Below, piece by piece: positions 1,563-58,847 of a DNA stretch of 64,000 bases. Below the pieces are notes generated by a model, which had not been told where the DNA came from, did not search any database, and saw only the letters and a program-made list of their open reading frames with translations. Position numbers and translations under genes: made by a program. Location of the stretch: NCBI GenBank assembly GCA_039621445.1, contig CP154954.1, forward strand, positions 25,060,954 through 25,124,953. Direction: 5' to 3'. Source of the DNA: Euglena gracilis (lineage: Eukaryota). Position 1 is the stretch's first letter, and each line of letters begins with the position of its first letter.

Positions 1563-3156
<1,594 letters not shown>

Positions 3157-3170
3157 GTCTCTGTTTTCAG

Positions 3171-3379: not shown

Positions 3380-4479
3380 GTGCGTGTCGGTCATCTTGCT
3401 TCATTTCTCAATGCTTGTTTGAGAAGGGTGTGGAAGGAATAAATTTAGTATGGAATTCATCCTGTTATTATTAACTCGTGTTGACCTATTTTTTTTCATT
3501 GTGGGAATGTTTGCATTTCCGCTTGAATTGTGGGTGTGTTGCCATACTTTTTGTTCTCATTCCCCCCTTTTTTTCTCAGCTTGGTGTCGCAGTAGTGTTG
3601 TCTGATCATCTAATAACCTTTTGCTTTTCCACATGATGGTTTCTGTGCGGTCTTTCTTCTCAAACCCCTTCCAGATGTATCCCCACTTATTATTTCAGAA
3701 AGTCAGCCGACCCCCCACCTTTATTTCAAACCCAAGCAAAGGACAGTGATGATTCCCTTTTTGTCCATGCCAACACCATTCATTTGCTTTGGCTTGAAGC
3801 TTCTTTTTTCCCAATGAAGTGGAAGAGCAGGGAGGCATGGAAGACTCTTTCTTATCATGCCTTGCAAATATCAAGGAGGCCTTCGGACGTCCTTTTCCTC
3901 TGCGTGTCAACTCTGCCGGTTTGGACTTTGCTCATTTGAAACGTGGATTGTTTCATTTTGGCACGTCCTTGCACATTGTAGTCATTCAAATGGAGTTGTA
4001 TGCACATCAGCCCTCAACGAAGCACCATGTCGAAGCACAGATCTTCTTTTCCCTTTGTGGTGATAGAAATAAAGGATATCATATATGTCTAAATGGCGGT
4101 TGGTTCCAGCCAAAAGCCATTCAAACTCACTGGGGGGAACTTCAAACTCAGCAGTGTGAAATGAACGTCCAACAGAAGATGCTTCGGATGGGTGCTTCGT
4201 CAGGTGCCCAAAGGCATTTGAGCCCTTCAAGCCCTGGATGTCTGGCTGGGCCCGTTTGGATACAGAACGGGGTATTTTTAAGTTGGCAGGCCCCCGACTG
4301 GCTGGCCATGGATCCCCGGGGTCTAAAGAAATCCGCTTAATCATATGAAATTTCCCAACCCAAACCCAACTTGGTGGTATATTTAAACCAAAGTTTTATT
4401 GCATCATTTTGCTCAGCCCAAGGGATGCGTTTCACGTTTTTTCCGCATTTTTTCCCGCATTTTTTTGCAAATTTCCAAG

Positions 4480-4783
4480 CTGGCTGTATTTTAGTCTGGT
4501 GCCGACCCCACCCCGGGGGGTGGTGCCTGCAGGCACTCCAAGGCACTCCCAATCCGACCCCCCCTCCGGGGGGGGAGGGTAGGGCACACGCCAAAAGTGC
4601 CCCAGCACAACCCCGGCGCCAAAGGCACCGGGGAACCAAAAATAGCCTATTTTCAAAGGAATGCGTCTGGGCACAGGCCCAAATCCGACCCCCCCCATGG
4701 GGGGGGTGTAGTGCCTGCCTGAGCAGGCACTCACAGGTACTCCGGACCCCCCCCTCCCCCCGGGGTTGGTAAAAAACAGCCTG
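4480..4783. mobile_element. hAT-like MITE, family C, 8-bp TSD TTTCCAAG
   Basis: TSD at 4472-4479 and 4784-4791. Ends ctggctgtatttta / taaaaaacagcctg. Closely similar to 14588-14897. Confidence 0.9.
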
Positions 4784-5632
4784 TTTCCAAGTACGATTTT
4801 TGAGCATGTTTTTTGCATTTTTTTGCGCGTTTTTCATTTTTCTTTCCAGCACATTTCCTTTTTTTTTTTCCTTTTTGACGCATTTTTTTTCATGATTTGC
4901 CAAAATTTCGCAATGTCAATTTTTTTTTGCCATTCCCCCATTTTTTTGCATTTTTTTTGTATTTTTTGAGCTGACATTTTGCTCATAATTCAATACGTGA
5001 GCAATTCGATTTTCAGACTTTTGCACTTTCTGCCAGAATTTGCACATTTTTGCGCATTTTTTTCGAGGCTTGGCTGGCGCATTCCTGCCTCCCCTCATTT
5101 GCCACAGCAATCTTGAAAGTGTGCGCTGCGACTGTCGCACCCCCATTCAATTTCTTCTTGATTTTTTTTTGTTGTGTAGTTTTTTGTAAGTTTTTTTCAG
5201 TTTGTGTCGTTCTTCGCCATGTCAAAGAAGTTCTGTGCCGCATCCACCGCAACAAAATGCTCATATTTTTTTTTAGAATAATGAGAATGATTGTGCACAC
5301 TACATTACAAATGAAACATAACTTCCCCAGGCAGTCCCCTGATGCAGAAAACTGTCTGGGAGGTTGAAAAATGGAATTTCTGCACATCCCAGTCATTAAT
5401 GACATTTGCACTTGCGGACACCTGAAGAATGGCAAAGCCATTCGTTGGGCAAAGCCCGATTCCAGTACCCTGCCCAGTCCGTCTTCATCAGGAAACAGTG
5501 GCAAGAGGATGGCCTTGGTTTGTTCTGTAACCCTATGCGGATGCTGGCACCCTTGATTTCCCACCAACCTGCCCTTCCCAATGACTTTCTTCGCATTGTG
5601 ATCTTCAAAACCTTCAGTAGGATCCGTGTCGA

Positions 5633-5634
<2 letters not shown>

Positions 5635-5672
<38 letters not shown>
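5635..5672. repeat. (TG)n microsatellite
   Basis: Direct reading. Confidence 0.95.
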
Positions 5673-5673
<1 letters not shown>

Positions 5674-5833
5674 ACCCCCAAGGCAAGGGTGTATTCCAAA
5701 GGTGTATACTTTCACCCCAGCTCATTACCCCCCCCCCCCCAGGTTGCTGGGGCCAGTATCATCATCCCCCCCCCTTTAAGGGTTTGGCTTGGCTGCTCCC
5801 TTGGCCATTGGTGGCAACATGCCCCCCCCCCCC

Positions 5834-6100
5834 CAGGGCTGTGCGGAAATCCCTGAAACCCTATGGGCGGTGGTTGGGGAGTCGACCCCCCCCTCCCTGC
5901 TGGGTGGGGGGCGACCCCCCCCCCACCAGCACCAGGCCTTGTTATATTTTCTGGCGCCGATTTTTAGGTCACAATCTTCCTTCGGCGCCGAAGGAATTCT
6001 TGTGGGTTGTGTGGTGGGTGGGTGGGGGTCGACCCCCATTTTGCCAGAGGGCCTGATGGCGAGGTCGACTCCCCTCCCCAGACCTTCCCGTACATCCCTG
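5834..6100. mobile_element. hAT-like MITE with TIR CAGGGCTGTGCGGAAA / TTCCCGTACATCCCTG in a poly-C tract
   Basis: Imperfect 16-bp TIR, CAG...CTG termini, poly-C on both sides (compatible with a C8 TSD). Confidence 0.75.
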
Positions 6101-6304
6101 CCCCCCCCCCCCAGTTTGACCACAGTGGTTTCCCCAATCGATCCCCCCCCCCCCGAACCAGCATTCCCCTCTTTGGCCGAGGGTAAAAGAACTGTCATTT
6201 GGGGGGGGGGAGGGTACGTCATGTTGGGGAGTGAATGTGGTGCATGACTTTTCAGCCCTGCCTTGTGCTGTCGTGGTGGGCCTGTGGCCAGTCCACACAA
6301 TCAC

Positions 6305-6625
6305 CTGGTCACTGGCCGACCCCCCCCCCCCCCGAGGGTGGGTGACTGGTTTTATCAGAGTGATTGACTGGTTTTTTTTTTGCCCCGGACCCCCTTCCCG
6401 GGGGGGGGGGGTCGGCAAAAAATCACTAAAGTGACCCGGGGCCGAAGGCACTGGAAAACTTTTTTTTGGCTTTTTTTTCACGTTTGTGGTCAAATTTCCT
6501 TTGGATTCCAGAGCGGCCGACCCCCCCAGGGGGGGAGTGACTGACTTGTCTTCCAAAAAAGTGACTTACTGGTTTTGGAAAGAGTTGAAGTGACCCCCCT
6601 CCTCCCGGGGGTCGGTAAAGAACTG
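6305..6625. mobile_element. Dispersed repeat family D (gggtgactggttttt...gagtgactgactgg), probable MITE
   Basis: Related sequence at about 16740-17020 and 43940-44020. TSD not identified. Confidence 0.55.
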
Positions 6626-7486
6626 TATGGGCCAGCCTCTTTACTCAGTAATGGATCAAACTCTGTACATGGCCTGACTACCGTGGCTTCTGTGTCATTC
6701 ACGCAAACAAAAACGCCCCTCAACCATGCAAAAGCGTCGATTACTTTCATTTCTAAGAAAACCAGCAAACAATTTTAAACAAAAGAATATATGGTGTCTC
6801 CACTGTTCTCATTCATCTTTTTTTTTCATTCGCAGCCCAGAAACAAAAAGCCTGTTCCTCAATACAGCTCCTAAGGTTATTGGATGGGCAATTTTAATAT
6901 TTGGGCGGTCTGCAGCGAAATTGAAATCAATAAAACACCATTTCCAATAAAGGAAACACGCAAAATTTGAAGAAGAAGTATAAGAAAGTGGAGGCAGTGA
7001 TTTGGTCAAGGTGACCAATTTGGGCTATAAACTGGCCAAACATGGCCCCAAATCAACCAAATTGGTCATCTTGACCAAATCACTGCCTCCACAGCCAGCG
7101 CTGACAGGGTGCGTCACCCACCCAGTATTGACCACCTCGCCCCCTTGCATGGGCTGTGGATAGTGACAAACAAAAGTCACAAATTGGAAAAGTTTACAAC
7201 TTGCTTCAGATTTGCACAAAGCCCTGTGGCAGTGGTGCTGTGCGGGGCAGGGCTGTGCTGGTGAACACACCATCACCACAGCCCATGGGCTAACATGGGC
7301 TTTGGGCTTGGGGTTGAGTACCACCCACAAAGTCAAGGGGGTATAAAAATGATTCGGCACACTGTGCAAATGCAACCACATATGCATATGCAAATACAAA
7401 TGCAAGTGCACATACAAATACAAACCTGGACACAAACACAAATGGAAATACAAATTGCAGACACAAATGCAATACACCACAAGTTC

Positions 7487-9330
7487 AGTACAGCACAGCA
7501 CAGCACAGTACAGTACGCACACAGCACAGTACAGTACAGTACAGTACAGTACAGTGCAGTGCAGTGCAGTGCAGTGCAGTGCAGTGCAGTGCAGTGCAGT
7601 GCAGTGCAGTGCAGTGCAGTGCAGTGCAGTGCAGTGCCGTGCCGTGCCGTGCCGTGCCGTGCCGTGCCGTGCCGTGCCGTGCCGTGCCGTGCCGTGCCGT
7701 GCCGTGCCGTGCCGTGCCGTGCCGTGCCGTGCAGTGCAGTGCAGTGCAGTGCAGTGCAGTGCAGTGCAGTGCAGTGCAGTGCAGCACAGGACAGCACAGC
7801 ACAGCACAGCACAGCACAGCACAGCACAGCACAGCACAGCACAGCACAGCACAGCACAGCACAGTACAGCACAGCACAGCACAGCACAGCACAGCACAGC
7901 ACAGCACAGCACAGCACAGCACAGCATAGTACAGCACAGCACAGTACAGCACAGCACAGCACAGTACAGTACAGTGCAGTACAGTGCAGTACAGTGCAGT
8001 ACAGTGCAGTGCAGTACAGTACAATACAGTACAGTACAGTGTACAGTACAGTACAGTGTACAGTACAGTGTACTGCGTACAGTACAGTGTACTGCGTACA
8101 GTACAGTGTACTGCGTACAGTACAGTGTACTGCGTACAGTACAGTGTACTGTGTACAGTACAGTGTACTGTGTACAGTACAGCGTACTGTGTACAGTACA
8201 GCGTACTGTGTACAGTACAGCGTACTGTGTACAGTACAGCGTACTGTGTACAGTACAGCGTACTGTGTACAGTACAGCGTACTGTGTACAGTACAGCGTA
8301 CTGTGTACAGTACAGCGTACTGTGTACAGTACAGCGTACTGTGTACAGTACAGCGTACTGTGTACAGTACAGCGTACTGTGTACAGTACAGCGTACTGTG
8401 TACAGTACAGCGTACTGTGTACGGTACAGCGTACTGTGTACGGTACAGCGTACTGTGTACGGTACAGCGTACTGTGTACGGTACAGCGTACTGTGTACGG
8501 TACAGTGTACTGTGTACGGTACAGTGTACTGTGTACGGTACAGTGTACTGTGTACGGTACAGTGTACTGTGTACGGTACAGTGTACTGTGTACGGTACAG
8601 TGTACTGTGTACGGTACAGTGTACTGTGTACGGTACAGTGTACTGTGTACGGTACAGTGTACTGTGTACGGTACAGTGTACAGTGTACGGTACAGTGTAC
8701 AGTGTACGGTACAGTGTACAGTGTACGGTACAGTGTACAGTGTACGGTACAGTGTACAGTGTACGGTACAGTGTACAGTGTACGGTACAGTGTACTGTGT
8801 ACGGTACAGTGTACTGTGTACGGTACAGTGTACTGTGTACGGTACAGTGTACAGTGTACGGTACAGTGTACAGTACAGTGTACAGTGTACAGTACAGTGT
8901 ACAGTGTACAGTGCAGTGTACAGTGTACAGTACAGTGTACAGTGTACAGTACAGTGTACAGTGTACAGTACAGTGTACAGTGTACAGTACAGTGTACAGT
9001 ACAGTGTACAGTACAGTACAGCACTGTGTACAGTACAGTACAGCACTGTGTACAGTACAGTACAGCACTGTGTACAGTACAGTACAGCACTGTGTACAGT
9101 ACAAAGTGCAGTACAGTACAGTACTGTGTCCAGCACAGTACAGTGCTGTGTACAGTACAATACAGTACTTTGTGCAGTACAATGCACTACAGTGCTGTGT
9201 ACAGTGCAGTACAGTGTTGTGTCCATTACAGTCAGTACAGTACAATACCGTGTACCGCACAGTACTGGATACAGCACAGTCAGGCTGGGGGTAAGGGTTA
9301 GGGTCAGTGCTGTGTACAGCACAGTACTGT
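7487..9330. repeat. Compound satellite: pentamers CAGTA/CAGTG/CCGTG/CAGCA grading into 19-bp units TACAGTACAGCGTACTGTG and variants
   Basis: Direct reading. Source of the spurious long Cys/Thr/Val/Tyr ORFs. Confidence 0.98.
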
Positions 9331-10332
9331 GCTTCTGGACCATTTTGGCCAAGACCGCCAATTTTTTTGTCCCCAATTTTCTTGCCTCCAATTTTTTTTG
9401 GCACCAATCCCTCCCCTGTACGCTCGCTACGCTGCACCACACTACCAGTGCAGTTCAGGTTTCTTTTTCAGTCTGGAGCCCCCTGAGGGGGAGGGGTGGG
9501 TGGGTGGGTAGGTTTTGGGCTGGATCCCCCCCGGGGGATCCCAGGCCGGAGGGTTTGTGAAATTCTTCTAGTCCCCTCCAGCAAAAGTGCACTAATTCCC
9601 AAAACCACAATTTCCGCATTTTTTTCTGCAGTTTTCCCGCAATTTTTACGAAGCCTTCCGATATCGATTCCCTCCTACCTGAACTATGTTTCTCACAATA
9701 TAATGTACATACATAAGCCATATAATATACACTACAATAAATTTTGCAATTACAACTTCAATTACAATCATTATTACAATTGCAATTGCAATGAAGTACA
9801 ACACAATTGCAATAACAAAAACAAGCACGCGAGCACGCGAGCAAGCAAGCAAGCAAGCAACCAAACAAACAAACAAATGAATGGTGATGGAGGCAAGTCA
9901 TTCAATAAACAAGGATTTTGGGGGCATCTCCCTCCCTGTGTCAGACCACCCAAAGCCTTTTCTTTCTAGTGATGTCCTTGGTGTTTCTGCTCACACATGC
10001 ACACAGTCAAACCCATGCACATTTTTTCCCATGATAACTTGAGAACTCCCTAATACAATGTTTGAGCATCCTGGCGCATTTTCTGTGCCTCAAGAACCGT
10101 TGTCTTCTCACCCCCGCCGAAGGCTTTATCAGATCCGAAACCCTCGCCTTTGGTCTCTGCCCCCTCCCTCATTGGCTGGGAGGGTTCGACCCCTATGCTT
10201 TGCATTTAAGACGATCGACATCCAACCCCGAGCAAAAAAGACCGAAAAATAAATCAAACAAAAAACAAAAAAATAAACAAAACAAAAAATAAATAACAAA
10301 CAAAAAAATCCAACCCCAGTCGCACTGAACGC

Positions 10333-10558
10333 AGTGGAGACACCCCACCGGGAGGCGAAGCCGGGCCCTGGCAGCCACGTGTCGCCCACCGGGGGCAGCT
10401 TCCGCAGCAACGTGAAGGTCCCGATCCCCGGCGGGTCGGGAGGCCGGCTGTCGCCGAAGGCCCCGCCCTCCCCCCAGCCGGGACGGGCGCCAGTCACCCC
10501 CAGCAACCGCCTTTCCCCGAAGTCCCCGCCTTCCGACCAGGGGGACACAGGTCTCTGG
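10333..10558 (+). CDS. Pro/Ser-rich exon, probably upstream part of the alpha-kinase gene
   Basis: GC-rich island in AT-rich flanks, open frame VETPHREAKPG...SPKSPPSDQ. Boundaries uncertain. Confidence 0.6.
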
Positions 10559-11615
10559 GCTTTGACATTGCATATGAACACCGCTCAAAAAAGAGCAGAA
10601 AAAGGTGGAATGACTGGGGGGGGGTGTTCGGGGTTCCTTTGACGCTGGGTGGATACCCAATAAAAATGGTAGATTTGTTTCCAATTCCAAAGTGCAAGTA
10701 TGACCCCTCGAGGGCGTTTTCGCTAGGTATTGCTGACTGCCCATTGACCGTTCATTTTTGGGATAATTCATGTGCAAAATTTTTGGGTAAAATCCTTTTG
10801 AAATAATTTCAGAAGTTTTTAAGTATTACCCTGTGCTGTCGTCCAGTTGGCTCAAGATGCTTATACATCCCAAAAATCATTTTGTATTTTATACATTTGG
10901 GTTGGATTCCTTTTTTCATTCCATGGCCCTGTGGATTTGCCCAACCTCCGTGGGACTGCTCTCAGGCATCTGCAGGTAAACACCATTTTCCATGCACAAA
11001 ATACAATTACCCCCTTCCCCCCAAATGAACATCCCCCCCTCCCCAGTAAAGTGCAATGTCAAACTACACCCCCGTCCCCCCCTGCCCAGACAAGTTAGCC
11101 TGGGATGAAGCTAGTGGGACAGGGTTATTCTGATGTTGGCCATGCGCCGAAGGTTGCTCAGATTAAGAACCCCTGGCACGCGGCCTAATTTTGGGTCCGA
11201 ATTTGTTTTAATTGTGGCTTACGCCCAAATGCAATTCCTGACAGGGTTGCATTTTGCATTACATGCAAAGCGTGTCTTTTTTTTGGTCGCTCTAAACAGA
11301 AATGGCTTTATTGTTTTGGCACAATTTATAAATTGGCCTGAACTTGACCAGTTCATATGTTACAAATGGAACATCACCAAAATTTCCCGGCCTTGTCCTG
11401 AATGGTTCTATCGACAGGCTTCACATGGCATCTCCACACTGCTGCCTCCACCCCCATGGGGACACCAACAGTGAGAAATGGGGGTGATTTGTATTTTGGG
11501 GAGAGATTTATAATCTGGAGGTTATTTTTTTTTTGCAGAGACTCATGAAAAGTTGCCAAGCGAAATCAGCGCCAAAAAGCATTTTTACTCCAGGCACACC
11601 CTTCATATTGTCGTT

Positions 11616-11676
<61 letters not shown>

Positions 11677-14600
11677 CTTTTTCTTTCACGTTGTTTTTTT
11701 TTGATTTCACAATGCTTCTCCGTTCCTTTTTTTGAGCTTGCGTGCGTCTGTGCGCGTGTGCCCGGGTGCGCGGGTGCACCTGCCTGCCTGCAAGGCCTGC
11801 ACCTTCGCCAACCCCCCGGACAAGGACGCCTGCACCATGTGCGCCACCAAGAAAGGCTCCTCTGGGCCACGTCGGGAGAGCCCCTCGCGGCCGCTCCCTT
11901 CCGCCCCGCCGCTCCCCGCCAGTTTGCCAGGGCCGGCGTCGAGGGGGGCTGAGCCACCCAATGGCAGTGAGCGAATGGAGGAGCTTTGGGCCCCTGGGAG
12001 TGCCCGAAATGAATCTAAAGGTGACCGCCACCTCAGGCACCGGGTGGTGCGCTGTTATTTGGACCTGTCTGATTTTTGTTGATGTTCTTCAGAGTGGCGC
12101 CCCGACGTACAGTGGGGGGGGGTACTGGCTAGTCGACCGACTAGTCGGTCGACTAGTTCACCGACTACTAGTCGACCGACTAGTCGGTGGGGGGAACTGG
12201 CTAGTCGGTCGACTAGTCGACCGACTAGCCACTCTAATGTACCAAAAGGGGGGGGTCACCGACTTTTTAAGCCCCCCCCTCCAATACTGATTTGCCTTGT
12301 TTGGCCAAAAATTTCGTTGAACATATTTCAAACAGCGAAAAACGCACCATAAACATCCCTTTTGTTGCTCAACTGTCCCAGGGCCCCAAAATAACAAAAT
12401 CCCTTGTGTTGCCAAACCGTTTTGGAAGCCAATCCCTTTTGTTGCTCAATTGTCCCGGGGCCCCAAAATAACAAAATCCCTTGTGTTGCCGAACCGTTTT
12501 GGAAGCCAATCCCTTTTGTTGCTCAACTGTCCCAGGGCCCCAAAATAACAAAATCCCTTGTGTTGCCGAACCGTTTTGGAAGCCAATCCCTTTTGTTGCT
12601 TAATTGTTCCGGGGCCCCAAAATAACAAAATCCCTTGTGTTGCCAAACCCCTTTGGAAGCCAATCCCTTTTGTTGCTCAATTGTTCCGGGGCCCCAAAAT
12701 AACAAAATCCCTTGTGTTGCCGAACCGTTTTGGAAGCCAATCCCTTTTGTTGCTCAATTGTTCCGGGGCCCCAAAATAACAAAATCCCTTGTGTTGCCGA
12801 ACCGTTTTGGAAGCCAATTCCTTTTGTTGCTCAACTGTCCCAGGGCCCCAAAATAACAAAATCCCTTGTGTTGCCGAACCGTTTTGGAAGCCAATCCCTT
12901 TTGTTGCTCAACTGTTCCGGGGCCCCAAAATAACAAAATCCCTTGTGTTGCCGAACCGTTTTTGGAAGCCAATCCCTTTTGTTGCTCAACTGTTCCGGGG
13001 CCCCAAAATAACAAAATCCCTTGTGTTGCCGAACCGTTTTGGAAGCCAATCCCTTTTGTTGCTCAACTGTCCCAGGGCCCCAACATAACAAAATCCCTTG
13101 TGTTGCCGAACCGTTTTGGAAGCCAATCCCTTTTGTTGCTCAACTGTCCCAGGGCCCCAAAATAACAAAATCCCTTGTGTTGCCGAACCGTTTTGGAAGC
13201 CAATCCCTTTTGTTGCTCAACTGTCCCAGGGCCCCAAAATAACAAAATCCTTTGTGTTGACAACTTTGAAGGCTTTAGACGTGTTTTCTTTGAGATTCTA
13301 GTTCAAAGCAAGTCAAATCAATGTTGGGGGGGGGGCTTAAAAGGTCGGTGACCCCCCCTTTTGGTACATTAGAGTGGCTAGTCGGTCGACTAGTCGACGG
13401 ACTAGTCGACCGACTAGCCAGTTGCTCCCATAGCCAGTACCCCCCCCCCCCCCTGGTACCGACTAGGCCACCGACTAGTCGGTCGACTAGTCGGTAGGGG
13501 TACTGGCTAGTCGACCGACTAGTCGGTCGACCAGCCAGTACCCCCCCCCCCCAGTCTAAATATTGGGGCCCTTCAGAGTTACCATTAAAACTTTGGAGGT
13601 GAACTTATTATGTTATAAAATTGGGATTGGGACTGCTTTGGACAACCGGGGCTGTGGTTTTATTTAGACTCTGCGCTTGTGGCACCCTCCTATTGGGGGG
13701 GCGGGTTTAGCCGGGTTCAGGGGCTGCGAGTTGACATTTTTTTCTGTTGGACATTTCCCCCCCATTTTTCGTCACAAACCTCAGTTGGGGCGAACTGGGT
13801 TTTCAGGCCGCCCGGAATTCTCCCTCTTTGACTGCAGCTTGACACCTTCGGCTGGTCTGAGGGATGCGCTGACCTGATTCGACTGCAGCTTCCTATTCGC
13901 TTTCCAGCAACCTTTGGTAGGCGGGCGAGAAGGATCCTGCCTTTTGGCCATCGCTGGAGGCCACCCCTGCTCCGTCGGCGGAGGGGCCGTGGGTGTGCGA
14001 GGTCTGCACACTGCGCAACCCGGCGACGCTGATGCAGTGCAGCGCCTGCCTCGCGCCCTGCCGGAGCAAAGACCCGTCGCAGTCCCTCGCAGGCCCCCCC
14101 CCCCGAAATGGGGATGCTCAGCCCGGAATGCAGGTGGGGGGATGTGCAGATTTGTGCATTTCTTCAAATTGTACAAGAATCTTGCGCTTTTAACACGCTT
14201 TTCGGCATTTTTTTCTGCATTTTTGAACACTTTTTGGTTTTTCAGGTTTGTTTGTGCATTTTATTGTATTTTCCCCAATTTCACACATTTTTGCCTGTGT
14301 ATTTTTTTAAAAAAAAGTTATATTTCCTTGTTTTTTTCTGTGTGATTTTTTTGAAAATTTTTTTTTGTATGTTTTGGGATGATTTTTACATTTTTTTTAC
14401 ATTTTGATTTTTTTTTTTGCATCCCCCCCAAATGCACAGTTTGTGCATTCTTGCGCCTTTTGAGCATCATTGCCAGGGTACCGCATATCTCTGCAGAATG
14501 GCTTTCACTCCCTGTGCTTTCTCCCTCACAATTGACTTCTGCAACACTGCACTTTTTTCTGACCCCCCCCCCCAAATAAGACCCCACCAGACTGTGTTTT

Positions 14601-17600
14601 AGTCGGGTGCCGACCCCACCCGGGGGGGGGGGTGCCTGCCTGGGCAGGCACCCCAAGGCACTCCAAATCCGACCCCCCCAGGGGTAGGGGGGTAGGGCAC
14701 ACGGCCAAAAGTGCCCTAGCACAGACCCGGCGCCAAAGGCGCCGGGGAGCCAAAATGGCCTATTTTCAAAGGAATGTGCCTGGGCACAGGCCCAAATCCG
14801 ACCCCCCCCCATGGGGGGGGAGTGCCTGCCTGGGCAGGCACTCATAGGCACTCCGGACCCCCCTCCCCCCCCCCGGGGTTGGTAAAAAAACAGCCTGGAC
14901 CCCACCCCAGGATTTCCGGGAAAATCCAACAATACACACCACCGAAAACAGCAAAAGACCCCAAAATGGGTGATTTTTCCACATTTTTTGGGTTTTTTTT
15001 GCTCCTTTCAAATGTGTTGCAATTTGCATTTTTTGGGGACAATTTTCATTCATTGCCAAAAATCACCTTTTTTGACGTATTTTTGGGCCATCCTACCGGA
15101 AGGTTTTTTTCGGCTGAATTTTTCAAAAAAAATTCAAAAAGTAGATAGCCCCCCAAAATAAGACCCCCTGGGTCTTTTTAGCAACGGACCCAAAAAGCAG
15201 ACCCAGGGTCTTTTTTTGGGGTGGGTTTTGTTGCAAGGACGCTATAATCTCATGAATTTTTGGACGTCAACGCCACAACTGTAGTGTGATCAAGGAAGTT
15301 CGAAACGAAAAGTTTCAGGGCTTCTATTTGGTACAGTTACGAATTTTCCTCTTTGAGGTGAGACGTTCCAATCACACTTTGGTTAAATTGCTGAGGGAGT
15401 ATGTGGTTTCTAAATCTTGCCCCATCCCCTGCCATGGGGGGCTGCTGGCGAACTTCAACAACGACGCCGAGATCCAGAAGTACGTCCAGGCCAGGGTTGT
15501 ATGGGAAGCTCCGCAGACATGAGGTAGGTGGTAGGGGGGGTCACCCCCCCCCCCTAGGGGGGTAAGGTCTAAGGTGGTAGGGGGGGGTCACCCCACCCCC
15601 CCCCCTAGTTTCGGAAGGGGGGTCCCCCACCCCCCAGAGATTCCCATACAACCTTGGTCCAGGCCCAGAAGGATTTGCTACAGTTGCTGCGTGCGGGACG
15701 TCTGACGCAGGGCGCGTACCAGAAGATGGCGCCCAAGGCCTCTGCTCAATCCGAAACCATCCCCAGTGGGAGGGGGGTTCTCCATCCACTCGACAGGGAG
15801 GGACAGGGTATTACGTGAGCGTTGGCTTTGTACAGGGTTTTTTTTTATTTGTGGACCCCGGGGGGGGGAGGAGGTCCACGACTAAAAGGGGGGGTAGGGT
15901 GGGTGGGTCCGGCCGAGACCCCCCCCCCTGAGGGGGTCCCCCCAGGGAGGAGTGGGTTATATTTTTCGGCGCCTTTGGCGCCGAATTTTTTTGAAAAGGT
16001 GCTATTTTTAGCAATCTTTGGCCATTTTCAGGGAAAAGAAAGTGGGTTCCCCAGGACCCTCCCCGCGGGGGGGGGGGGACCCCGGGGCCCCAGGGGGTGG
16101 GTGGGTGGGGGGACCCCCCCTCCCCCCAGTCTTTAAAAAAACCCCTGTCAGGAGAGGGGAAGGGCCTCTCCCGCGGACCCCCCTGGAACCAAAAGCATTT
16201 CTTCTCCGGGGCTTTGTGCCGGAAGACTGCTTTTTTATCACATTTCTTTGTTCATTTGTTGAAAAGATTGCGAGTTCGGCCACTTTTTGAAGCCCCCCCC
16301 CCCAGAATTTTCTTGGGCAGAAGGGGGAGGGGGGAAGGGGGCACCAGATCCCCCTTCCCCCCTAGAAGGGGGGGGGTGCAACCCGGGGGGTAAAAAAAAA
16401 ACCTGCGCAAATCACTCTTCTTCTCCCGGGGAGGCGGGGGGTTCCGAGCAGGGCTTTGGCGGCGCAGGGGCTGCAGGCCTCCTCCTCCAAGCCGGGCCAC
16501 CCCGGCGCGGCCAGCCCGGCGGCGGTGAAGGACGCGTTCGAGCTGCCGCAGGGCGTGTCGGAATCGGTGCTGAGGTCCGCCTCCCTCCGCCCGCCTTCCA
16601 GCCAACCAAGCATCCCTCCCCCGGCGGTGGGAATGTGTTTGTGGAACAGACTTCCACGAAGCACTTGGCCGAAAACGTGACCGAATCCAATTTTTTTCCT
16701 GGCATGCTGGACCAAAAGCTAGAATCCATGAAAGGTCAGTCAAACCCTGTAGGTTTATTTCCGGAGTGACTGACTGGATTTTTTTTTTTGCTCCGGACCC
16801 CACCGGGGGGGGGGGGTCGGCCAGGACTGGCCTAAATTTCGGCGCCGAAGGCCCCAGAAATTTTGGGGTATCGACCAAAGTCTATTCATTTTTGGCCGTT
16901 ATGGCCGAAATGGCCAAGTGACCCTCAGGGTCCTCCCCGAGGATGGGAAGTGGGTGACTGGTTTTTCAAAAGTAACTGACTAGTTTTTTGGAATGAACTC
17001 CCCCCTCCGGTGAAGACCTCCCTTCTGGAGATAAATTCTTTTCTTTTCCTGTGCTTTGTGCCCCATCCTGAAGAACGTCATTCTCCCTCAACCCTCTGTT
17101 ATCCTGTGGCGCATTTGCTCAAAACGCCCACACTGGCCTGTTTCGATATCAGCAGTCTCCACCACATATGTCGCCTTGTGGCCCCAAATACCACCCTCCC
17201 TTGCTGAAAGAACACCACCCTTGTGTGGTGAACAACGGATAAACCGTCATTTCCCAGTCGCTGGTATTCCAGAGGTGAGGCATTCTTACCTTGGCATGTT
17301 CCTCGACCGCGAGGCGCATTGCCCCAGCGTCGATCTGGAACTCACAGGCCATTCCCGTGTGGGGGCAGCTTGCTACCTGCTTGAAGTCGGAGTGCTTCAG
17401 GCGGCCTTCCACCTGCTTGTACTCCTTCTTCCATTTTTCCAACGTCTCCAAGTCATTGACCACGGGACAGCCCCCCCCCCCCCACCCACCACGGGTTGTT
17501 GATCACAGCTTAGTGGTCTTGGGACAAGCGAGGGTATGATTATGACACGGGGTCCTGTCTCTCGCAGGCAGTGGTATGACTGGGACACCAAGCGGTGGAT

Positions 17601-20600: not shown

Positions 20601-21948
20601 GTTTTTGGAGGCCTGTCGTTTTGGGCAGAGGCCAGTGTTACCCTTCCCATTGACGTGTGATATGCCATCGTTGGACAAACTTGTCAGCTGGCTGTAGGTG
20701 TCTACCTGTTTGGGGTTGCTAGGAAAGAGGAACAGGGCTCGTCGCAGGCATGGGTGATCTGCCGCTCTGGCAACGTGCTACCAAACCAACGGGTGTGCTT
20801 TGTTTGCCTTCGTGCATTTCTCGGAAGAGCTCAAAGTTCCCCAAGAAAGAGTATGATTATCAATTCAGCCTTTTAACCTTTCTCTGATAATTTGGCTTAT
20901 ATCATACTTTCATGTTTTGGATAAGTTGGATTATATTTCATCTTACAAATTTGGGAAAGCGCTATTTCCCTTCATAAAATGTCTAATGGAGTTTATTATT
21001 TTTTTGTGCTCTTCCGTAAGAGGTTCCTATGTGTCCCCCCTCTGATGGTTTCCTGCCTCTCTGTGTGGCCTCAGGTCCTCGCAGCCGAACCGTATATTGA
21101 CCCCACAAGCTACTTGAAGCACAACAACAACCACACATCACCCCCCGTTTTGCCTCTGTGCCTCACTTCACGCACAGGGGAGCACACACCAGCCGGTGGA
21201 CCAGCCCCAGGATGGGGTGATGTGTGGCCCCAATTGGGGGTTTGTTCATCCCCTGGCCCGGAACACGCCGCAGGCGTTCTCCCATTTCTCCTGGGAGTAC
21301 ACCCAGCACCGATTCATGATCGTCAGCCAGGCTGTCAGGCAGATGGATATCCGCCCGATGCCGCAATTTTTTTTATTGGCATCCCTGTCCCCCAGATGAC
21401 CTCCTGTCGCCTCATGTCTGCCCGCTGTGGTTTCAGTGGCGCATTTCCCCTCCGGCCTCATTCTGTTTTGTCACCCGAGCCTTTCGCCGGCAGCCTGCCT
21501 GGGATATCCAGGGAGTGGGGGACGTGTACACGGACCCCCAGATCCACAGTGCGACCCATGCAGTTGCTTTGTGCCTTCGGTGTCGATTACTTACGCCGCT
21601 CCTGGGTGCGGGGTGGTTGGCGGGCAGGACCCTGGGGGATTCTCCGACTACAACAAATGGTAATGGCTGGGGAAGCTGTTTTGTCAACATTGGGGGGAGG
21701 GTGGTATCTGAGTTCCTTTGGGTAGTACGAAGGTACTCATCACCCATTCTGCAGTCCGCAGGGTTGAACGCCATTTTGCCCAAACATCAGCTGAATTTGC
21801 TGTGCAGCCCAAATTTTCATTGGAATGGCCTGGGGGGGGGTGGGCTTGACGGAGGGGGATCAACTGCATGCTTGAAAAGGACCCTGATATTTTCATTTTG
21901 ATTGAGGAAGCACCCACCTCCCATTGGACAGAAAAAAATACACTGTGG

Positions 21949-21986
<38 letters not shown>

Positions 21987-22233
21987 CGCTGAGCTTGCCT
22001 CGACCCTCTCCTGTGGTGGGCACATGTATGGCGCTGACGACGATGGAACGGGGAAGGGACCCTGGGGGATGGGCAACTGCGGCATGGAGGCCAGGCTTTG
22101 AGCACCGTATTATCACCCCACCTGCAAGTGCACGAAACACCAATGAATACTCAGCACCCAGCAAGCAAAAAGAACACAGACAATACCCCCCCCCCCCACA
22201 CACACCCACCCACCCACCTGACGCACCTACACA

Positions 22234-22293
<60 letters not shown>

Positions 22294-31494: not shown

Positions 31495-31765
31495 CAGGGG
31501 TTTTTTTTAGTCGTGGACCCCCGGGGGGGGTAGGGTGGGTGGGTCCGGCCGAGCCCCCCCCCCCCCCCAGGGGGGTCCCCCCGGAGGGGGGTGGGATATA
31601 CTTTTCGGCGCCGAAGGCGCCGAAAAAGTGCTATTTTTAGCACTTTTCGCGATTTTTGGCCATTTTTTTGTGGGTCCCACGGGACCCCCCCCCCCCCCCC
31701 GGGGGGGCCCCCCGGGGGGGGGGGGGGTGGGGGGGACCCCCCCGGTCTTAAAAAAAAACCCCCTA
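31495..31765. mobile_element. hAT-like MITE, 8-bp TSD TTTGCCTC
   Basis: TSD at 31487-31494 and 31766-31773. Ends caggggtttttttt / aaaaaaaaccccccta-type. Confidence 0.85.
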
Positions 31766-44800: not shown

Positions 44801-44870
44801 CAGGCTGCTTCAGGCGTTGCTCTGACTGGTGTTCCTGGTTGCTTCCTCCTGCCCCCCCCCACTCCTTCAG

Positions 44871-51015: not shown

Positions 51016-51418
51016 AAACCCCAACCAAATATTACCCCCCCCCCAAATAATACCCCCCCCAAATAATACCCCCCCCCTTTGGTGTCTGACTTTGGCCGCC
51101 GAAATAATACTCCCCCCCGGATTTTTACCTGAAAATGAAGGTAAAAATCACAATCTCTGACAACATATTACGAAAAAAATCGATTCTTCTGGCTCATCAG
51201 ACCTCCAAAAAATGGTAAATTTCACAAGAAAGTGCAAAAAATGACCCCAAAGGGGGGGTTTTGGGTGCTGTTTTGGGGTTTACGGGACTTCGAAAAATTT
51301 CGAAAATTTTGGAAAAAATAATACCCCCCCCCCAAATAATACCCCCCCCCCCTCGGGCCGGGACTTCGGGCGAAAAAATAATACCCCGGGGGGTATTGTT
51401 TGGGGGGGGGTGGTATTA
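51016..51418. mobile_element. TA-flanked MITE (AAATAATACCCCC subrepeats) found only in triplication copy 1
   Basis: Absent at the homologous sites near 54495 and 57577. Inverted C-rich/G-rich ends. Confidence 0.75.
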
Positions 51419-52762: not shown

Positions 52763-54086
52763 CAGGGGTTTTCTTAAGCCGGAGGGTACCATCCCCCGGG
52801 GGGGTCCAGCCAGCCAGCAGCTCAAATCCAGCCAGCAGCCCAAATTCGGGCTGGGAGCCCCCCCCCCCCCGGGGTCGAGTGAAATAAAGTTGGGTTCCAG
52901 CCCGGCCAGAGGCCGGGCCAGCCGGCCACAGGCTGGCCAGCCAACTGGGCTGCTCAGCTCACCCATCCCTGCATTTTCCCCCCTCATCACAGCTTCCTCC
53001 ATCACAGCCCCTCCATCCATCAAGATGTCGAAAATGGCAAAAAGTTTTAGTTTTTTTCACCGACCCAGCCCAGCCCAGCCCCCTCCAGCCCGGGACTTGA
53101 ATAGTGCTGAGCTCTTAATAAGCGCTCACCCACCCCTTCATTGACACCCCCATATAAACCAGCGCACTCCATGGAGCTCTGTTGACTGAAATGCAAGGGT
53201 TTTGTGCCCGAAACGGGGCGCCGGGGGGTGAAGAAACACTCATTTTTGGCTAAATACACCTTTTCCGGGTCCGGGAGGCCAAAAAACAGCGCTTTTAGCG
53301 AAAATTTTTTTTGGATTGTTTCGAATTTTTTGACCCAAAAATGACCGGAAGTGAGTGGGTTGACAGCCCAAAACGGGGCGCTGGCGGGTCGAAAAACGCT
53401 CATTTTCGGCCCAAAAACAGTTTTTCTGGGTTCGGGAGGCCCGTATCTCGGGCTACGCGAACAGCTGCGGGGAAATCAAAAATACCGGTAGATGGAGTGT
53501 TCCAAGGGCTTCAAATTAAGTCTCCGGACATTTCCTTTAATTTGGCTTCATTTTGGAGATATTTTGAAAATTGACATTTTTTTCGCCGAAATGGCAGAGT
53601 CCAAAGGGGGGGGGGGCTTATCCAGGGGTGGGTGGGCCAATCCTACCCAGTTTGGACCCCTTCGCGGGTGAATAACTCGGGCCTGGCAGGGAGTTGGGGG
53701 TCAAACCCAGGTGATTCGGAAACTCGGAATCCAGTCGCTCGCGACTGAATTTTTTTTTTCGGGAACGGGGCCAGGATCATGGTGATAATCCGTCGGTTCC
53801 CGAGGTGGCCCTGAGGGGGGGGGAGGGGTGGGTTCGGGGGTTTCCCCCAGGGGTAAGCTTCCCTCTTACCCATAAAGGGATAAGAGCTCAGCGACCCCCC
53901 CCCTATACCCCCCAGGGGGGGGGGTAGCAGCTCATTTCCACCAGCCCAGCCCAGCCCCCTCCAGCCCGGGACCCTCCCCCCCCCCCTAATTCCCCTGGGG
54001 GGGGTAGCAGCTCATTTCCAGCCAGCAGCCTTTTTTTGCCAGCCGGAGGCTGGACCCCACCCCGAGGATCCTTAAGAAAACCCCTG
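52763..54086. mobile_element. 1.3-kb composite hAT-like non-autonomous element, perfect 16-bp TIR, 8-bp TSD ACCTTGGC
   Basis: caggggttttcttaag / cttaagaaaacccctg. TSD at 52755-52762 and 54087-54094. Confidence 0.9.
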
Positions 54087-55837: not shown

Positions 55838-57161
55838 CAGGGGTTTTCTTAAGCCGGAGGGTACCATCCCCCGGGGGGGGGGTTCCAGCCAGCTAGCAGC
55901 TCAAATCCAGCCAGCAGCCCAAATTCGGGCTGGGAGCCCCCCCCCCCCGGGGTCGAGTGAAATTAAGTTGGGTTCCAGCCCGGCCAGAGGCCGGGCCAGC
56001 CGGCCACAGGCTGTCCAGCCAACTGGGCTGCTCAGCTCACCCATCCCTACATTTTCCCCCCTCATCACAGCTTCCTCCATCACAGCCCCTCCATCCATCA
56101 AAATGTCGAAAATGGCAAAAAGTTTTAGTTTTTTTCACCGACCCAGCCCAGCCCAGCCCCCTCCAGCCCGGGACTTGAATAGTGCTGAGCTCTTAATAAG
56201 CGCTCACCCACCCCTTCATTGACACCCCCATATAAACCAGCGCACTCCATGGAGCTCTGTTGACTGAAATGCAAGGGTTTTGTGCCCGAAACGGGGCGCC
56301 GGGGGGTGAAGAAACACTCATTTTTGGCTAAATACACCTTTTCCGGGTCCGGGAGGCCAAAAAACAGCGCTTTTAGCGAAATTTTTTTTTGGATTGTTTC
56401 GAATTTTTTGACCCAAAAATGACCGGAAGTGAGTGGGTTGACAGCCCAAAACGGGGCGCTGGCGGGTCGAAAAACGCTCATTTTCGGCCCAAAAACAGTT
56501 TTTCTGGGTTCGGGAGGCCCGTATCTCGGGCTACGCGAACAGCTGCGGGGAAATCAAAAATACCGGTAGATGGAGTGTTCCAAGGGCTTCAAATTAAGTC
56601 TCCGGACATTTCCTTTAATTTGGCTTCATTTTGGAGATATTTTGAAAATTGACATTTTTTCGCCGAAATGGCAGAGTCCAAAGGGGGGGGGGGCTTATCC
56701 AGGGGGGGGTGGGCCAATCCTACCCAGTTTGGACCCCTTCGCGGGTGAATAACTCGGGCCTGGCAGGGAGTTGGGGGTCAAACCCAGGTGATTCGGAAAC
56801 TCGGAATCCAGTCGCTCGCGACTGAATTTTTTTTTTCGGGAACGGGGCCAGGATCATGGTGATAATCCGTCGGTTCCCGAGGTGGCCCTGAGGGGGGGGG
56901 AGGGGTGGGTTCGGGGGTTTCCCCCAGGGGTAAGCTTCCCTCTTACCCATAAAGGGATAAGAGCTCAGCGACCCCCCCCCTATACCCCCCAGGGGGGGGG
57001 TAGCAGCTCATTTCCACCAGCCCAGCCCAGCCCCCTCCAGCCCGGGACCCTCCCCCCCCCCTAATTCCCCTGGGGGGGGTAGCAGCTCATTTCCAGCCAG
57101 CAGCCTTTTTTTGCCAGCCGGAGGCTGGACCCCACCCCGAGGATCCTTAAGAAAACCCCTG
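55838..57161. mobile_element. Segmentally duplicated copy of the 52763-54086 element
   Basis: Same TIRs and same TSD (55830-55837 and 57162-57169). Confidence 0.9.
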
Positions 57162-58847
57162 ACCTTGGCCGATGTGCTAACCCCCCGCCAAAATAACCCC
57201 CCTGACGATGCGTAGCACTGGGACCTCTTTTTTAAATTATAAAATTCAAAAATCTGGCGATTTTCTGACATTTTTGAAGCCACCACTTCTTTTCTTCATG
57301 TTAAATTTTCCTTGTCCAAGGTCCCAACCAAGGAAATTTTTAAAATTTTTGGATCCCGGTGGGGGGGGTGGGGGGGGGTGGGTGGGTCTGCCAGACACTT
57401 TCCCGGCCTGACAGCTGTCACCGCCTCTCACCGTCTGGGCGGTTCCCCCAAGGACCTTGAGAGCCCCTGCCGCAGACGGGGGTTTTGACCATGGCCATTT
57501 CCGCTTTTTTTTTGACCCCAAAGTGATCCCCAAAAATGTGAGTCCCCTGAACCGTCCCTCCCCCCCCCCCCGAAGGTACTCCTGGGTGGATGGGTTGGGA
57601 ACCCCCCAACACCTCCGCGACCTAAAAAAAATGGGGGCTTGGAGCCCATTGAGCACCTCCGACCCGTGTCCCCAGCCTTCTGGCCTATCCCACAGTGCCA
57701 CGTTTTGATTGGCCACTGCCACTGAGGTACGTCTCCCACTGGGTCTCTTGGGAGCGGGGTTGCTGCGATACCGATGGCTCGAGGCCTGATGGGAGGGTAG
57801 GTGGGACGGCCGCGTAATGGGTGAATCTGACCTGCCAGCCAGAGGCTGTTGTGTGGCAATGCAGCCCTTCAGCAAACGAACCAAGTGGCTCCTCACATTT
57901 TCCCAGTGCCTCGGTCATCTTTGTCACACCCAAAACGAGCTGGAGGTCAACCCAGTGACAGTGAGTTGCAGCAATGTCTCGAAATATTTAGCCAGAAAAC
58001 TTCATTTTTTTAAAAAAAAGCCCGGGGAAGTACTGAAAAGAAAACATGACGACATGGCATAAATTTTGTGAATATGCTTCTTGCTAAATTTTGTGAATAT
58101 GCTTTAAGGACATTTTTGTTTTTACAATGACGCAACACGAGGCAGCAAGCAGAAAGACTTAATAAATTGGCCACCTCTCCCAAGGCACCACATTGGCACA
58201 GCAAATGCACTGTTGAAATACGGCATGGGGTGGTTCCTTCAACAGCAAACGCCGGGTGTCGTCCCAGAAAAGCGTCTTTGACGTGGGAGGGGGTGGCAAA
58301 TACATTCTGTACCTTGGGCAAGGGGGTAACTGGTTCATATGCACGGTGTTTTCCTGAGCTTTCCCCCTAACTGATTTTGTCACCAGCGACCAATCTGCCG
58401 GAGGGGACTCGTGGAATGCGTTGGTTGAGTGAGAGATTCTCGTTTCCCCGAAATTTCAACCCCCAGCGCCACCTTTTGGCCCGAAACCCATGGATTTTGA
58501 GTCAAAACTGGGTCAAAAAAGCGGAAAAAATAATGTAAATCTGCGAAATTCGCAGTCCTAGTCTTTTCCAACGTCCATTACGTGCAGCTCCCTTGTGGTG
58601 AACCCTCCGGGTGAACTGCCTCCGGCCACCCGGCCTTCCCATATTGCACGAGGGGGATCTGGGGAGGACGCCGTGTTTGATTTGTGCCTGTCCCGGCGTT
58701 GCACCACCACCAAAGCAGCCAGTGAGCTGGGCCCGACTGAGCCAAGGCTTGCCCCCCCCGACCGGCACCTGCCCCGTCCCGTCCCCGTCTGTCCCGGCAG
58801 CCGACCTCCCTCCAAAACGTGATGCACCCGATGGGCCCCCTGGGCTT

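What the first reader, a model, noticed from the sequence alone, without database searches (positions are those of the whole stretch)
4472..57169. hAT-like MITEs as an intron source: element plus one 8-bp TSD matches the nonconventional intron geometry
Seen: free elements at 4480-4783, 14588-14897, 19356-19636, 31495-31765 and 52763-54086 have CAG...CTG-type termini (three of them with one terminal substitution) and exact 8-bp TSDs. Seen: several non-GT-AG introns of the kinase gene have CAG at +4..+6 and CTG at -8..-6, so 3 nt lie outside the left TIR and 5 nt outside the right TIR, and 3+5=8. Established: 8-bp TSDs with short TIRs are typical of the hAT superfamily, euglenid nonconventional introns have this CAG/CTG stem consensus, and a transposon origin for them has been proposed in general terms. 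Inference: splicing removes the element plus exactly one TSD copy and restores the pre-insertion mRNA. Any such MITE landing in an exon, in either orientation, would be a ready-made intron, an introner-like system that does not use GT-AG.
Basis: partly seen in the sequence, partly recalled or inferred. Interest (0 to 1): 0.95.

Follow-up and report, generated by a model that had tools for sequence, protein, structure and literature searches.

The report
Transposon-born introns in a Euglena gene
In a Euglena alpha-kinase gene, two of the odd non-GT-AG introns are visibly small transposons plus one copy of their 8-base insertion scar, which gives concrete support to the long-held idea that such introns begin as mobile DNA.

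Summary
All five elements have exact 8-bp target-site duplications (TSDs) and CAG...CTG-type ends. "Free" is loose, though. E1, E2 and E3 sit inside introns 3, 9 and 14 of one alpha-kinase gene, and E5 and its twin are a single insertion copied by a 3.08-kb tandem duplication.

A transcript-derived protein (eukprot EG_transcript_3313) maps to 25 exons and 24 introns. Eighteen introns are non-GT-AG. In 11 of these 18, intron length minus the inverted-repeat-bounded element equals 8, two of them ambiguously.

Intron 10 is a 165-bp element with a 15/16 inverted repeat plus a perfect 8-bp duplication. Intron 13 shows 7/8. Both are in the 3+5 register. Permutation p = 0.0009.

The remaining nine introns show weak or no TSD signal. 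No sequence family is shared between introns and MITEs beyond CAGG ends. No transposase was found in the window. hAT versus Merlin is unresolved.

MITE origin, TSD-like repeats, one 8-nt repeat in a young intron, and the 3-nt/5-nt spacer code are already published. The new part is the link 3+5 = 8 = TSD, with real examples.

The parts
1280..26349 (+). Alpha-kinase gene (C1 + RanBP zinc fingers + alpha-kinase domain). Residues 41-745 of the transcript protein map to 25 exons separated by 24 introns. The 5' end lies outside the window.
   Evidence: Pfam PF02816 and PF00641 hits. P0001 (eukprot EG_transcript_3313) is 100% identical to the query exon.
15489..15661 (+). Intron 10 (173 nt). It equals the element 15492-15656 (165 bp) plus one copy of the 8-bp TSD GTCCAGGC. 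The inverted repeat is CAGGGTTGTATGGGAA / CAAGGTTGTATGGGAA (15/16). A GC-AG register is also possible.
   Evidence: Ten protein-consistent, mRNA-identical registers. L8 = R8 = GTCCAGGC at d=15488/a=15662. Termini. The RNA fold has a 19-bp terminal stem, z = -3.2.
17687..17950 (+). Intron 13 (264 nt). It equals the element 17690-17945 (256 bp, ends CAGGGTT...AACCCTG) plus one TSD copy. The left copy is CTCCC|GGC and the right copy CTCCT|GGC (7/8). The mismatch is in the intronic copy.
   Evidence: The terminal stem appears in the fold, although the overall z-score is not significant.
4480..4783 (+). E1, a 304-bp MITE nested in intron 3 (3918-5463). TSD TTTCCAAG. Ends CTGGCTGT / CAGGCTGT.
14588..14897 (+). 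E2, a 310-bp MITE of the E1 family (87% identity), nested in intron 9 (14077-15450). TSD GACCCCAC. Ends CAGACTGT / CAGGCTGT.
19356..19636 (+). E3, a 281-bp diverged relative of E1/E2 (72%), nested in the GT-AG intron 14 (17992-19991). TSD ACCCCTCC.
31495..31765 (+). E4, a 271-bp MITE. TSD TTTGCCTC. Ends CAGGGGTTTT / TAGGGGGTTT. No gene evidence around it.
15833..16147 (+). E4-like copy (72% identity) nested in intron 11. Ends CAGGGTTTTT...ACCCCTG. No TSD is left (2/8).
52763..54086 (+). E5a, 1324 bp, with a perfect 16-bp inverted repeat CAGGGGTTTTCTTAAG and TSD ACCTTGGC. No Pfam hit in its ORFs.
55838..57161 (+). E5b, a 98.9% copy of E5a with the same TSD and flanks. It is the product of a 3.08-kb tandem segmental duplication, not a second insertion. 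A third, partial unit lies at 47175-48783.
10960..11791 (+). Intron 7, nonconventional, in the 3+5 register. Ends CAGGCATCTGCA / CAGGCAGGTGCA. TSD identity 4/8.
21325..21502 (+). Intron 18, nonconventional, in the 3+5 register. Ends CAGGCTG / CAGGCTG, the same 7 bases as the E1/E2 ends. TSD identity 1/8. The spliced product reads FMIV|DIQG, as in the transcript protein.
22089..23708 (+). Intron 20, nonconventional, in the 3+5 register. Ends CAGGCTTTGAG / CAGGCTTGGAG. TSD identity 3/8.
24201..24881 (+). Intron 22, nonconventional, in the 3+5 register. Ends CAGCGAAA / CAGCGAAA. TSD identity 2/8.
43483..44807 (+). Candidate element only. Ends CAGCCCGA / CAGCCTGA, flanks ATTCAGGC / CTTCAGGC (7/8). 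It could be chance.
   Evidence: Control gaps gave 0-2 hits each.

Best explanation
The window is Euglena gracilis nuclear DNA. The organism name is read from the source label of the matching transcript protein. The window carries an alpha-kinase gene with at least 25 exons.

Non-autonomous DNA transposons are scattered through it. They have CAGG...CCTG inverted ends and make 8-bp target-site duplications. Four copies have landed inside existing introns (E1, E2, E3 and an E4-like copy). The others lie downstream of the gene.

At least two of the gene's nonconventional introns (10 and 13) are such insertions into what was once continuous coding sequence. The nonconventional splicing machinery recognises the stem formed by the inverted ends. 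It cuts 3 nt upstream of CAG and 5 nt downstream of CTG. What is removed is therefore the element plus 8 nt, which is one TSD copy, and the pre-insertion reading frame is restored.

Shown here: the elements, their TSDs, the exon map, and the exact equality of intron = element + TSD for introns 10 and 13.
Taken from print: the 3-nt and 5-nt spacer rule, which was tested there with synthetic introns.
Inferred: that the older introns in the same register (1, 4, 7, 11, 17-20, 22) arose the same way and have lost the intronic halves of their TSDs; and that the mobilising enzyme is a hAT-type transposase.
For: Elements and their reality.
- Exact 8-bp TSDs on five elements. E1 and E2 are 87% identical with different flanks.
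- Directly at the element ends the scan gave 7 hits, against 0-2 at control gaps.

Gene model.
- P0001 is a transcript-derived protein. All 24 introns have protein-consistent junctions.

Geometry.
- Intron length minus the inverted-repeat-bounded element equals 8 in 11 of 18 non-GT-AG introns (two of them ambiguous by one extra pair). It is 6 in one intron and 9 in another.
- Intron 10 has an 8/8 TSD and a 15/16 inverted repeat. Intron 13 has a 7/8 TSD with the mismatch on the intronic copy.
- Flank identities for the 11 introns are 4,1,4,8,5,7,4,1,4,3,2, or 43 of 88. Mismatched pairs average 2.43 of 8. Permutation p = 0.0009, or 0.044 without introns 10 and 13.
- The first base of the downstream exon is a purine in introns 7, 10, 13, 18, 20 and 22, as the published code requires.

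Literature, passages seen.
- 3-nt and 5(-6)-nt spacers proven with synthetic introns (PMC12501133).
- E. gracilis intron consensus CCAGG ... CCTG (PMC11170887).
- An 8-nt direct repeat at a recently gained E. agilis gapC intron (PMC4770533).
- hAT hallmarks are 8-bp TSDs and YARNG ends (PMC3014272).
Against: - Nine of the 11 introns in the 3+5 register have flank identity of only 1-5 of 8. Without introns 10 and 13 the excess is marginal (p = 0.044).
- Five of the 18 non-GT-AG introns (2, 3, 5, 6, 9) show no clear terminal inverted repeat at sum 8.
- No intron shares internal sequence with a free MITE apart from nested copies.
- No transposase domain was found in any of the 522 ORF translations scanned.
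- Junctions rest on one protein, not on reads.
- Intron 10 can also be drawn as GC-AG.
- The sample is one gene, 64 kb.
- The E1/E2 ends (CAGGC) fit YARNG at only 4 of 5 positions.
Confidence: 0.7

Rival explanations
1. Partial overlap only. Nonconventional splicing is an independent RNA-processing system that accepts any CAG/CTG stem with 3-nt and 5-nt spacers. A minority of such introns (here 10 and 13) are MITE insertions that happen to be competent substrates. Most nonconventional introns have other origins, and 3+5 = 8 is a coincidence or a later fit.
For: Nine of 11 introns in the register have no convincing TSD. Five of 18 lack a clear inverted repeat, and spacer sums of 6 and 9 occur. 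Synthetic introns with arbitrary spacers splice (PMC12501133). No shared families were found.
Against: The two clean cases sit in exactly the 3+5 register. TSD halves inside introns are unconstrained and should decay. The published consensus CCAGG...CCTG equals the MITE ends. A weak residual excess remains (p = 0.044).
Confidence: 0.2
2. The 8-nt repeats are scars of double-strand-break repair or staggered-break filling that captured foreign DNA. This is how the E. agilis gapC intron was interpreted. They are not transposase-made TSDs.
For: PMC4770533 proposes this for the one published 8-nt repeat.
Against: Break repair does not explain a constant repeat length of 8 on seven independent elements (E1-E5, introns 10 and 13). 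It also does not explain inverted ends of 7-16 bp starting with CAGG directly inside the repeats, or the 87%-identical copies E1 and E2 at different sites.
Confidence: 0.04
3. Reverse direction. The 'MITEs' descend from excised nonconventional introns that re-entered the genome, for example via circular RNA and reverse transcription. Introns would then be the source of the repeats, not the other way round.
For: Circular excision products of such introns are reported, as cited in PMC11282704. The element ends and the intron ends share CAGG.
Against: Re-inserted circles would carry the 3-nt and 5-nt spacers, and nothing known about them would produce a fixed 8-bp TSD. E1-E5 start exactly at CAG/CTG with the TSD directly outside.
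Confidence: 0.03
4. Same mechanism, but the elements belong to Merlin or another 8-bp-TSD superfamily, not to hAT.
For: Two Merlin families with 8-bp TSDs are reported in E. gracilis (PMC8101967, passages seen). No hAT transposase was found here.
Against: Merlin ends carry a conserved terminal 5'-GG (same paper). These elements start with CA. CAGGG fits the hAT motif YARNG (PMC3014272).
Confidence: 0.3

Closest known systems
Euglenid nonconventional introns (Milanowski et al. 2014, 2016; PNAS 2025 splicing code)
   Same: Non-GT-AG borders, CAG at +4..+6 and CTG at -8..-6, a terminal stem, and a purine at the start of the downstream exon. MITE origin and 'TSD-like' junction repeats are already proposed. 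One young intron with an 8-nt repeat is on record.
   Different: In the passages I read, print does not state that the two spacers add up to the TSD length. It names no superfamily. In 2013 it said that no transposable element was known in euglenids. Here real 8-bp-TSD elements with the same ends lie next to introns that equal element + TSD.
Introners (Micromonas, Aureococcus, dinoflagellates, Fritillaria): transposon-derived introns
   Same: A DNA transposon with inverted ends and a TSD becomes an intron on insertion. The TSD takes part in defining what is removed.
   Different: Introners are removed by the spliceosome, using GT/GC-AG or relaxed sites partly supplied by a 3-5-nt TSD. Here the borders are set by distance from an RNA stem, the machinery is unknown, and the TSD is 8 bp. 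Multi-copy intron families are not shown in this window.
hAT-superfamily MITEs, and Ds elements spliced from maize transcripts
   Same: 8-bp TSDs and short inverted ends starting CAGGG (YARNG). They are non-coding and 0.17-1.3 kb long. A hAT element can behave as an intron (Giroux et al. 1994, seen only as a reference in PMC3935182).
   Different: No hAT transposase was found. The E1/E2 ends fit YARNG at only 4 of 5 positions. Ds is spliced through cryptic GT-AG sites and imprecisely, not by a stem-and-spacer rule.
Merlin transposons of E. gracilis (PMC8101967)
   Same: Same organism, 8-bp TSDs.
   Different: Merlin ends begin with GG and the inverted repeats are 24 bp or longer. The elements here begin with CAG.

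Membership tests
MITE (non-autonomous TIR transposon) | Short, non-coding, with terminal inverted repeats | tested here: met
   Lengths are 165-1324 bp. Inverted ends run from 7/10 to 16/16. The ORFs overlapping them have no Pfam hit.
MITE (non-autonomous TIR transposon) | Fixed-length target-site duplication on independent copies | tested here: met
   Exact 8-bp TSDs, all different, on E1-E5 and the intron 10 element. Intron 13 has 7/8.
MITE (non-autonomous TIR transposon) | Multiple copies at unrelated sites | tested here: inconclusive
   The E1/E2/E3 family has 3 copies and the E4 family 2. E5 is one insertion plus duplicates. The elements of introns 10 and 13 have no second copy in 64 kb. 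No genome is held.
hAT superfamily | 8-bp TSD | tested here: met
   The feature is defined in PMC3014272.
hAT superfamily | Terminal motif YARNG | tested here: inconclusive
   CAGGG in E4, E5 and introns 8, 10, 13, 23 fits. CAGGC or CAGAC in E1-E3 and introns 7, 18, 20 fits 4 of 5 positions.
hAT superfamily | Autonomous partner encoding a hAT transposase (DDE fold with the hAT dimerisation domain) | not testable with these tools
   None found among the 522 ORF translations scanned against Pfam.
Merlin superfamily | Inverted repeats with a conserved terminal 5'-GG | tested here: not met
   All elements start with CA or CT. The criterion comes from PMC8101967.
Euglenid nonconventional intron | No GT/GC-AG; CAG at +4..+6 and CTG at -8..-6 (or complementary variants) with 3-nt and 5(-6)-nt spacers | tested here: met
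   Five of 18 are exact, and 11 of 18 have a spacer sum of 8.
Euglenid nonconventional intron | Terminal RNA stem bringing the ends together | tested here: met
   Shown in the folds of introns 10 and 13.
Euglenid nonconventional intron | Removal from mRNA at those borders | tested here: inconclusive
   Supported at codon level by the transcript protein.
Introner-like system | Families of near-identical introns, shared with non-intronic copies | tested here: not met
   In this window no intron matches another intron or a free element, apart from nested insertions. This is a test on 64 kb only.

The most novel reading that the evidence does not exclude
Euglenid nonconventional splicing is an RNA-level eraser matched to one kind of transposon. 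Its cut sites lie 3 nt before and 5 nt after the inverted-repeat stem, and they add up to the 8-bp target duplication of CAGG-ended (hAT-like) MITEs. Any insertion into an exon, in either orientation, is therefore born as a precise intron. This would account for most of the roughly 70% nonconventional introns of Euglena. Families still active would keep creating introns today.
Probability: 0.4. Interest if true: 0.85.

Novelty: new variant of a known kind. Interest (0 to 1): 0.62.

Why it matters
The origin of euglenid nonconventional introns has been an open question since the 1990s. A 2018 paper still asks whether the transposon theory is correct (PMC6221363). The 2025 genome-scale study calls the origin unclear (PMC12501133).

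If the spacer rule 3+5 is the RNA mirror of an 8-bp TSD, the hypothesis becomes quantitative and testable on existing data: more than 600,000 mapped E. agilis introns and 28,000 E. gracilis introns. It would explain why the spacers can be any sequence but must have fixed lengths. It would explain why most such introns are 'slidable'. It would also explain why a genome can tolerate massive transposon insertion into exons.

It would add a non-spliceosomal case to the introner phenomenon.

Tried and rejected
There are therefore no read-level junctions, no test of whether E2 is spliced as a nested intron, and no empty-site alleles.
- Whole genome. None is held. No genome-wide 8-mer test, family clustering or transposase search was possible.
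- Earlier findings.
- More genes in the window. Pfam scans of 522 ORF translations (150, 150, 138 and 84) gave only the alpha-kinase and RanBP hits, plus repeat or sub-threshold noise. These came from 906 stop-to-stop ORFs of 45 aa or more, of which 543 passed a composition filter; a few long ORFs were added. A dozen tandem-array ORFs and about 15 near-duplicate ORFs in 55.4-56.8 kb were left out.
- Protein searches with the two best-scoring other ORFs (58741-58998 and 33301-33672) found nothing. E4 and E5 stay without gene context.
- Kinase motif regexes found nothing, because the gene is an alpha-kinase.
- Other copies elsewhere. A 26-base block shared by E1 and E2 had 0 exact matches in metagenome contigs. 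A protein-guided scan for orthologous loci confirmed none of 55 pattern matches.
- An unmasked repeat scan was swamped by tandem arrays. It was redone with masking.
- The CAGGTGCGCATT cluster at 28.4-31.0 kb looked like a further CAGG-ended family. It is a 20-bp palindrome without TSDs, with flank identities of 1-4 of 8.
- GT-AG introns are not a clean control for the 8-mer test. Their own AG|GT...AG|G consensus gives 2-5 of 8.
- J Mol Biol 2021 (circular intron RNA) is not held. Supplements are closed, including the junction tables of the 2016 and 2025 papers and the sliding-distance figure, and these may already show an edge at 8.

Full report
**What is in the window.** Each has an exact 8-bp direct repeat directly outside CAG...CTG-type ends. 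E2 and E5 have intact CAG/CTG. E1 and E2 are 87% identical over about 300 bp yet sit in different flanks with different TSDs, so they are independent insertions of one family. E3 is a 72% relative. E4 has a 72% relative at 15833-16147.

As a chance control I scanned 78,027 CAG..CTG pairs outside three tandem arrays. I asked for an inverted repeat of at least 5/7 and flanking 8-mers of at least 7/8. Directly at the ends there were 7 hits. With the 8-mers moved 1-12 nt outward there were 0-2 per gap. The 7 hits are E2, the intron 13 element, E5 twice, one candidate at 43483-44807, and two that look like chance.

**Corrections to the observation.** The copy at 55838-57161 has the same flanks and the same TSD as E5. 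Both lie in a 3.08-kb tandem duplication (51423-54622 vs 54501-57704, 98.2%). A third, partial unit lies at 47175-48783. This is therefore one insertion that was later copied.

The 'kinase gene' is an alpha-kinase, and it is much larger than a reader without tools could see. Pfam found PF02816 at 21.1-21.9 kb and a RanBP zinc finger at 13.9-14.2 kb. A 42-residue exon translation retrieved a 745-aa protein labelled eukprot:EG_transcript_3313, at 100% identity over the aligned 74% of that query. From that label I read the organism as Euglena gracilis.

Residues 41-745 map to 25 exons between 1280 and 26346 on the + strand, and every one of the 24 introns has protein-consistent junctions. E1, E2 and E3 therefore lie inside introns 3, 9 and 14 of this gene. 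They are nested insertions, neither intergenic nor introns themselves. E4 and E5 have no gene evidence around them.

**Intron geometry.** Six introns can be drawn GT-AG or GC-AG (12, 14, 15, 16, 21, 24). Eighteen cannot, counting intron 10, which also allows a GC-AG register. Five of the 18 (7, 13, 18, 20, 22) have CAG at +4..+6 and CTG at -8..-6 in one register.

A measure that does not depend on the register is intron length minus the length of the element bounded by the terminal inverted repeat.
- It is 8 in introns 1, 4, 7, 10, 11, 13, 18, 20 and 22.
- It is 8 or 6 in introns 17 and 19, depending on one extra pair.
- It is 6 in intron 8 and 9 in intron 23.
- Introns 2, 3, 5, 6 and 9 show no clear terminal repeat at that spacing.

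This reproduces what is in print. The E. agilis study defined 3-nt and 5(-6)-nt spacers and proved them with synthetic introns (PMC12501133, passages seen).

Intron 10 is 173 nt. Its core, 15492-15656, has ends CAGGGTTGTATGGGAA and CAAGGTTGTATGGGAA (reverse complement of the 3' end), which match at 15 of 16. The one mismatch becomes a G-U pair in RNA. The core is flanked by GTCCAGGC on both sides, and 165 + 8 = 173. The transcript protein reads KYVQAQKD across the site, so it contains the repeat once.

Intron 13 is 264 nt. Its core, 17690-17945, has ends CAGGGTT/CAGGGTT. The flanks are CTCCC|GGC and CTCCT|GGC, and 256 + 8 = 264. The single difference lies in the copy that is inside the intron. 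The protein (DLSRPKG) uses the exonic version.

Both folds pair the two ends. Intron 10 has a 19-bp terminal stem with z = -3.2. The overall energy of intron 13 is no better than shuffled sequence.

**Statistics.** For the 11 introns with a spacer sum of 8, the flank identities are 4,1,4,8,5,7,4,1,4,3,2, or 43 of 88. The 110 mismatched left/right pairs average 2.43 with a maximum of 6. None of them reaches 7, and 1 of 440 shifted 8-mers does. The permutation p is 0.0009. It is 0.044 when introns 10 and 13 are left out.

So two introns carry the signal strongly and the rest only faintly. This is expected if the three and five intronic bases of the TSD are free to drift, but it is not proof.

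**What does not fit or is missing.**
- No intron shares internal sequence with another intron or with a free element, apart from the nested copies. More sensitive searches with the cores of introns 10, 13, 17 and 18 found only homopolymer-rich scraps.
- The likeness between introns and MITEs is therefore limited to the ends: CAGGG in E4, E5 and introns 8, 10, 13, 23, and CAGGC in the E1/E2 3' ends and introns 7, 18, 20. This agrees with the published E. gracilis consensus, CCAGG at the 5' end and CCTG at -9..-6 (PMC11170887, passages seen).
- No transposase domain was found in the 522 ORF translations scanned.
- 'hAT-like' rests on the 8-bp TSD and the YARNG end motif (PMC3014272, passage seen). 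Merlin elements with 8-bp TSDs are reported in E. gracilis, though their ends begin with GG (PMC8101967, passages seen).

**What is already known.**
- MITE origin was proposed in 2013, when no euglenid transposon was known (PMC3935182, passages).
- A review draws the CAG/CTG motif as an inverted repeat with TSD repeats at the junctions (PMC11282704, passages). It has no occurrence of 'hAT', '8 bp' or '8-bp'.
- A recently gained gapC intron in one E. agilis strain has 8-nt direct repeats, which the authors read as double-strand-break repair (PMC4770533, passages).
- The 2025 study finds 84% of introns 'slidable' and calls the origin unclear. It has no occurrence of 'TSD' or 'target site dupl'.
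- Full-text searches for Euglena with nonconventional intron and target site duplication, and with introner, hAT and MITE, turned up no paper that makes the 3+5 = 8 link. I saw passages only, not whole texts or supplements. One relevant paper is not held.

**Verdict.** The central inference (element plus one TSD copy is what is removed) is supported by two clean introns in this gene and by the published spacer code. The wider claims are open: hAT, an introner-like system, most introns, either orientation. This refines a standing hypothesis and gives it evidence; it is not a new kind of system.

Noticed in passing
window 28413-30988: A roughly 20-bp palindrome, AATGCGCA-SS-TGCGCATT, occurs 10 times (up to 1 mismatch in its 12-base core) within 2.6 kb. 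About 0.35 would be expected by chance. It has no TSDs. It may be a binding site or the hairpin of a repeat unit.
   Followed up: partly
window 1565-3158, 7482-9238, 12355-13259: Large tandem arrays sit inside introns 1, 5 and 8 of the kinase gene: ATATGT x265, 5-nt and 19-nt units over about 1.7 kb, and a 77-bp unit x11.7. The 77-bp array is bracketed by inverted 190-240-bp arms (12114-12302 vs 13306-13549), so it looks like a composite foldback element.
   Followed up: partly
window 47175-57704: A tandem segmental duplication with a unit of about 3.08 kb (two full units at 98.2% and one partial unit) carries E5 along. Inverted E5 fragments lie at 49568-50841.
   Followed up: partly
P0002 (ENA contig, not fetched): A 68%-identical alpha-kinase homologue reads straight through the positions of introns 17 and 18 (…KHNNNYGYV… and …MIVDIQG…). 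It then runs into apparent intron sequence after DIQG. The positions of nonconventional introns therefore differ between homologues.
   Followed up: no
window: base before CAG in 11 introns and 6 elements: The base just 5' of CAG is C in 10 of 11 introns in the 3+5 register and in 5 of 6 independent elements. The base after CTG shows no matching G. This fits the published CCAGG consensus and hints at a one-sided target or recognition preference.
   Followed up: partly
window 17290-17463 (-): A 58-aa open frame on the opposite strand inside intron 12 scores as high as real exons on codon usage. It has no Pfam hit.
   Followed up: partly
window 4480-4783, 14588-14897, 19356-19636: All three copies of the E1 family lie in the same orientation as the host gene's transcription. 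With n = 3 this may be chance.
   Followed up: no
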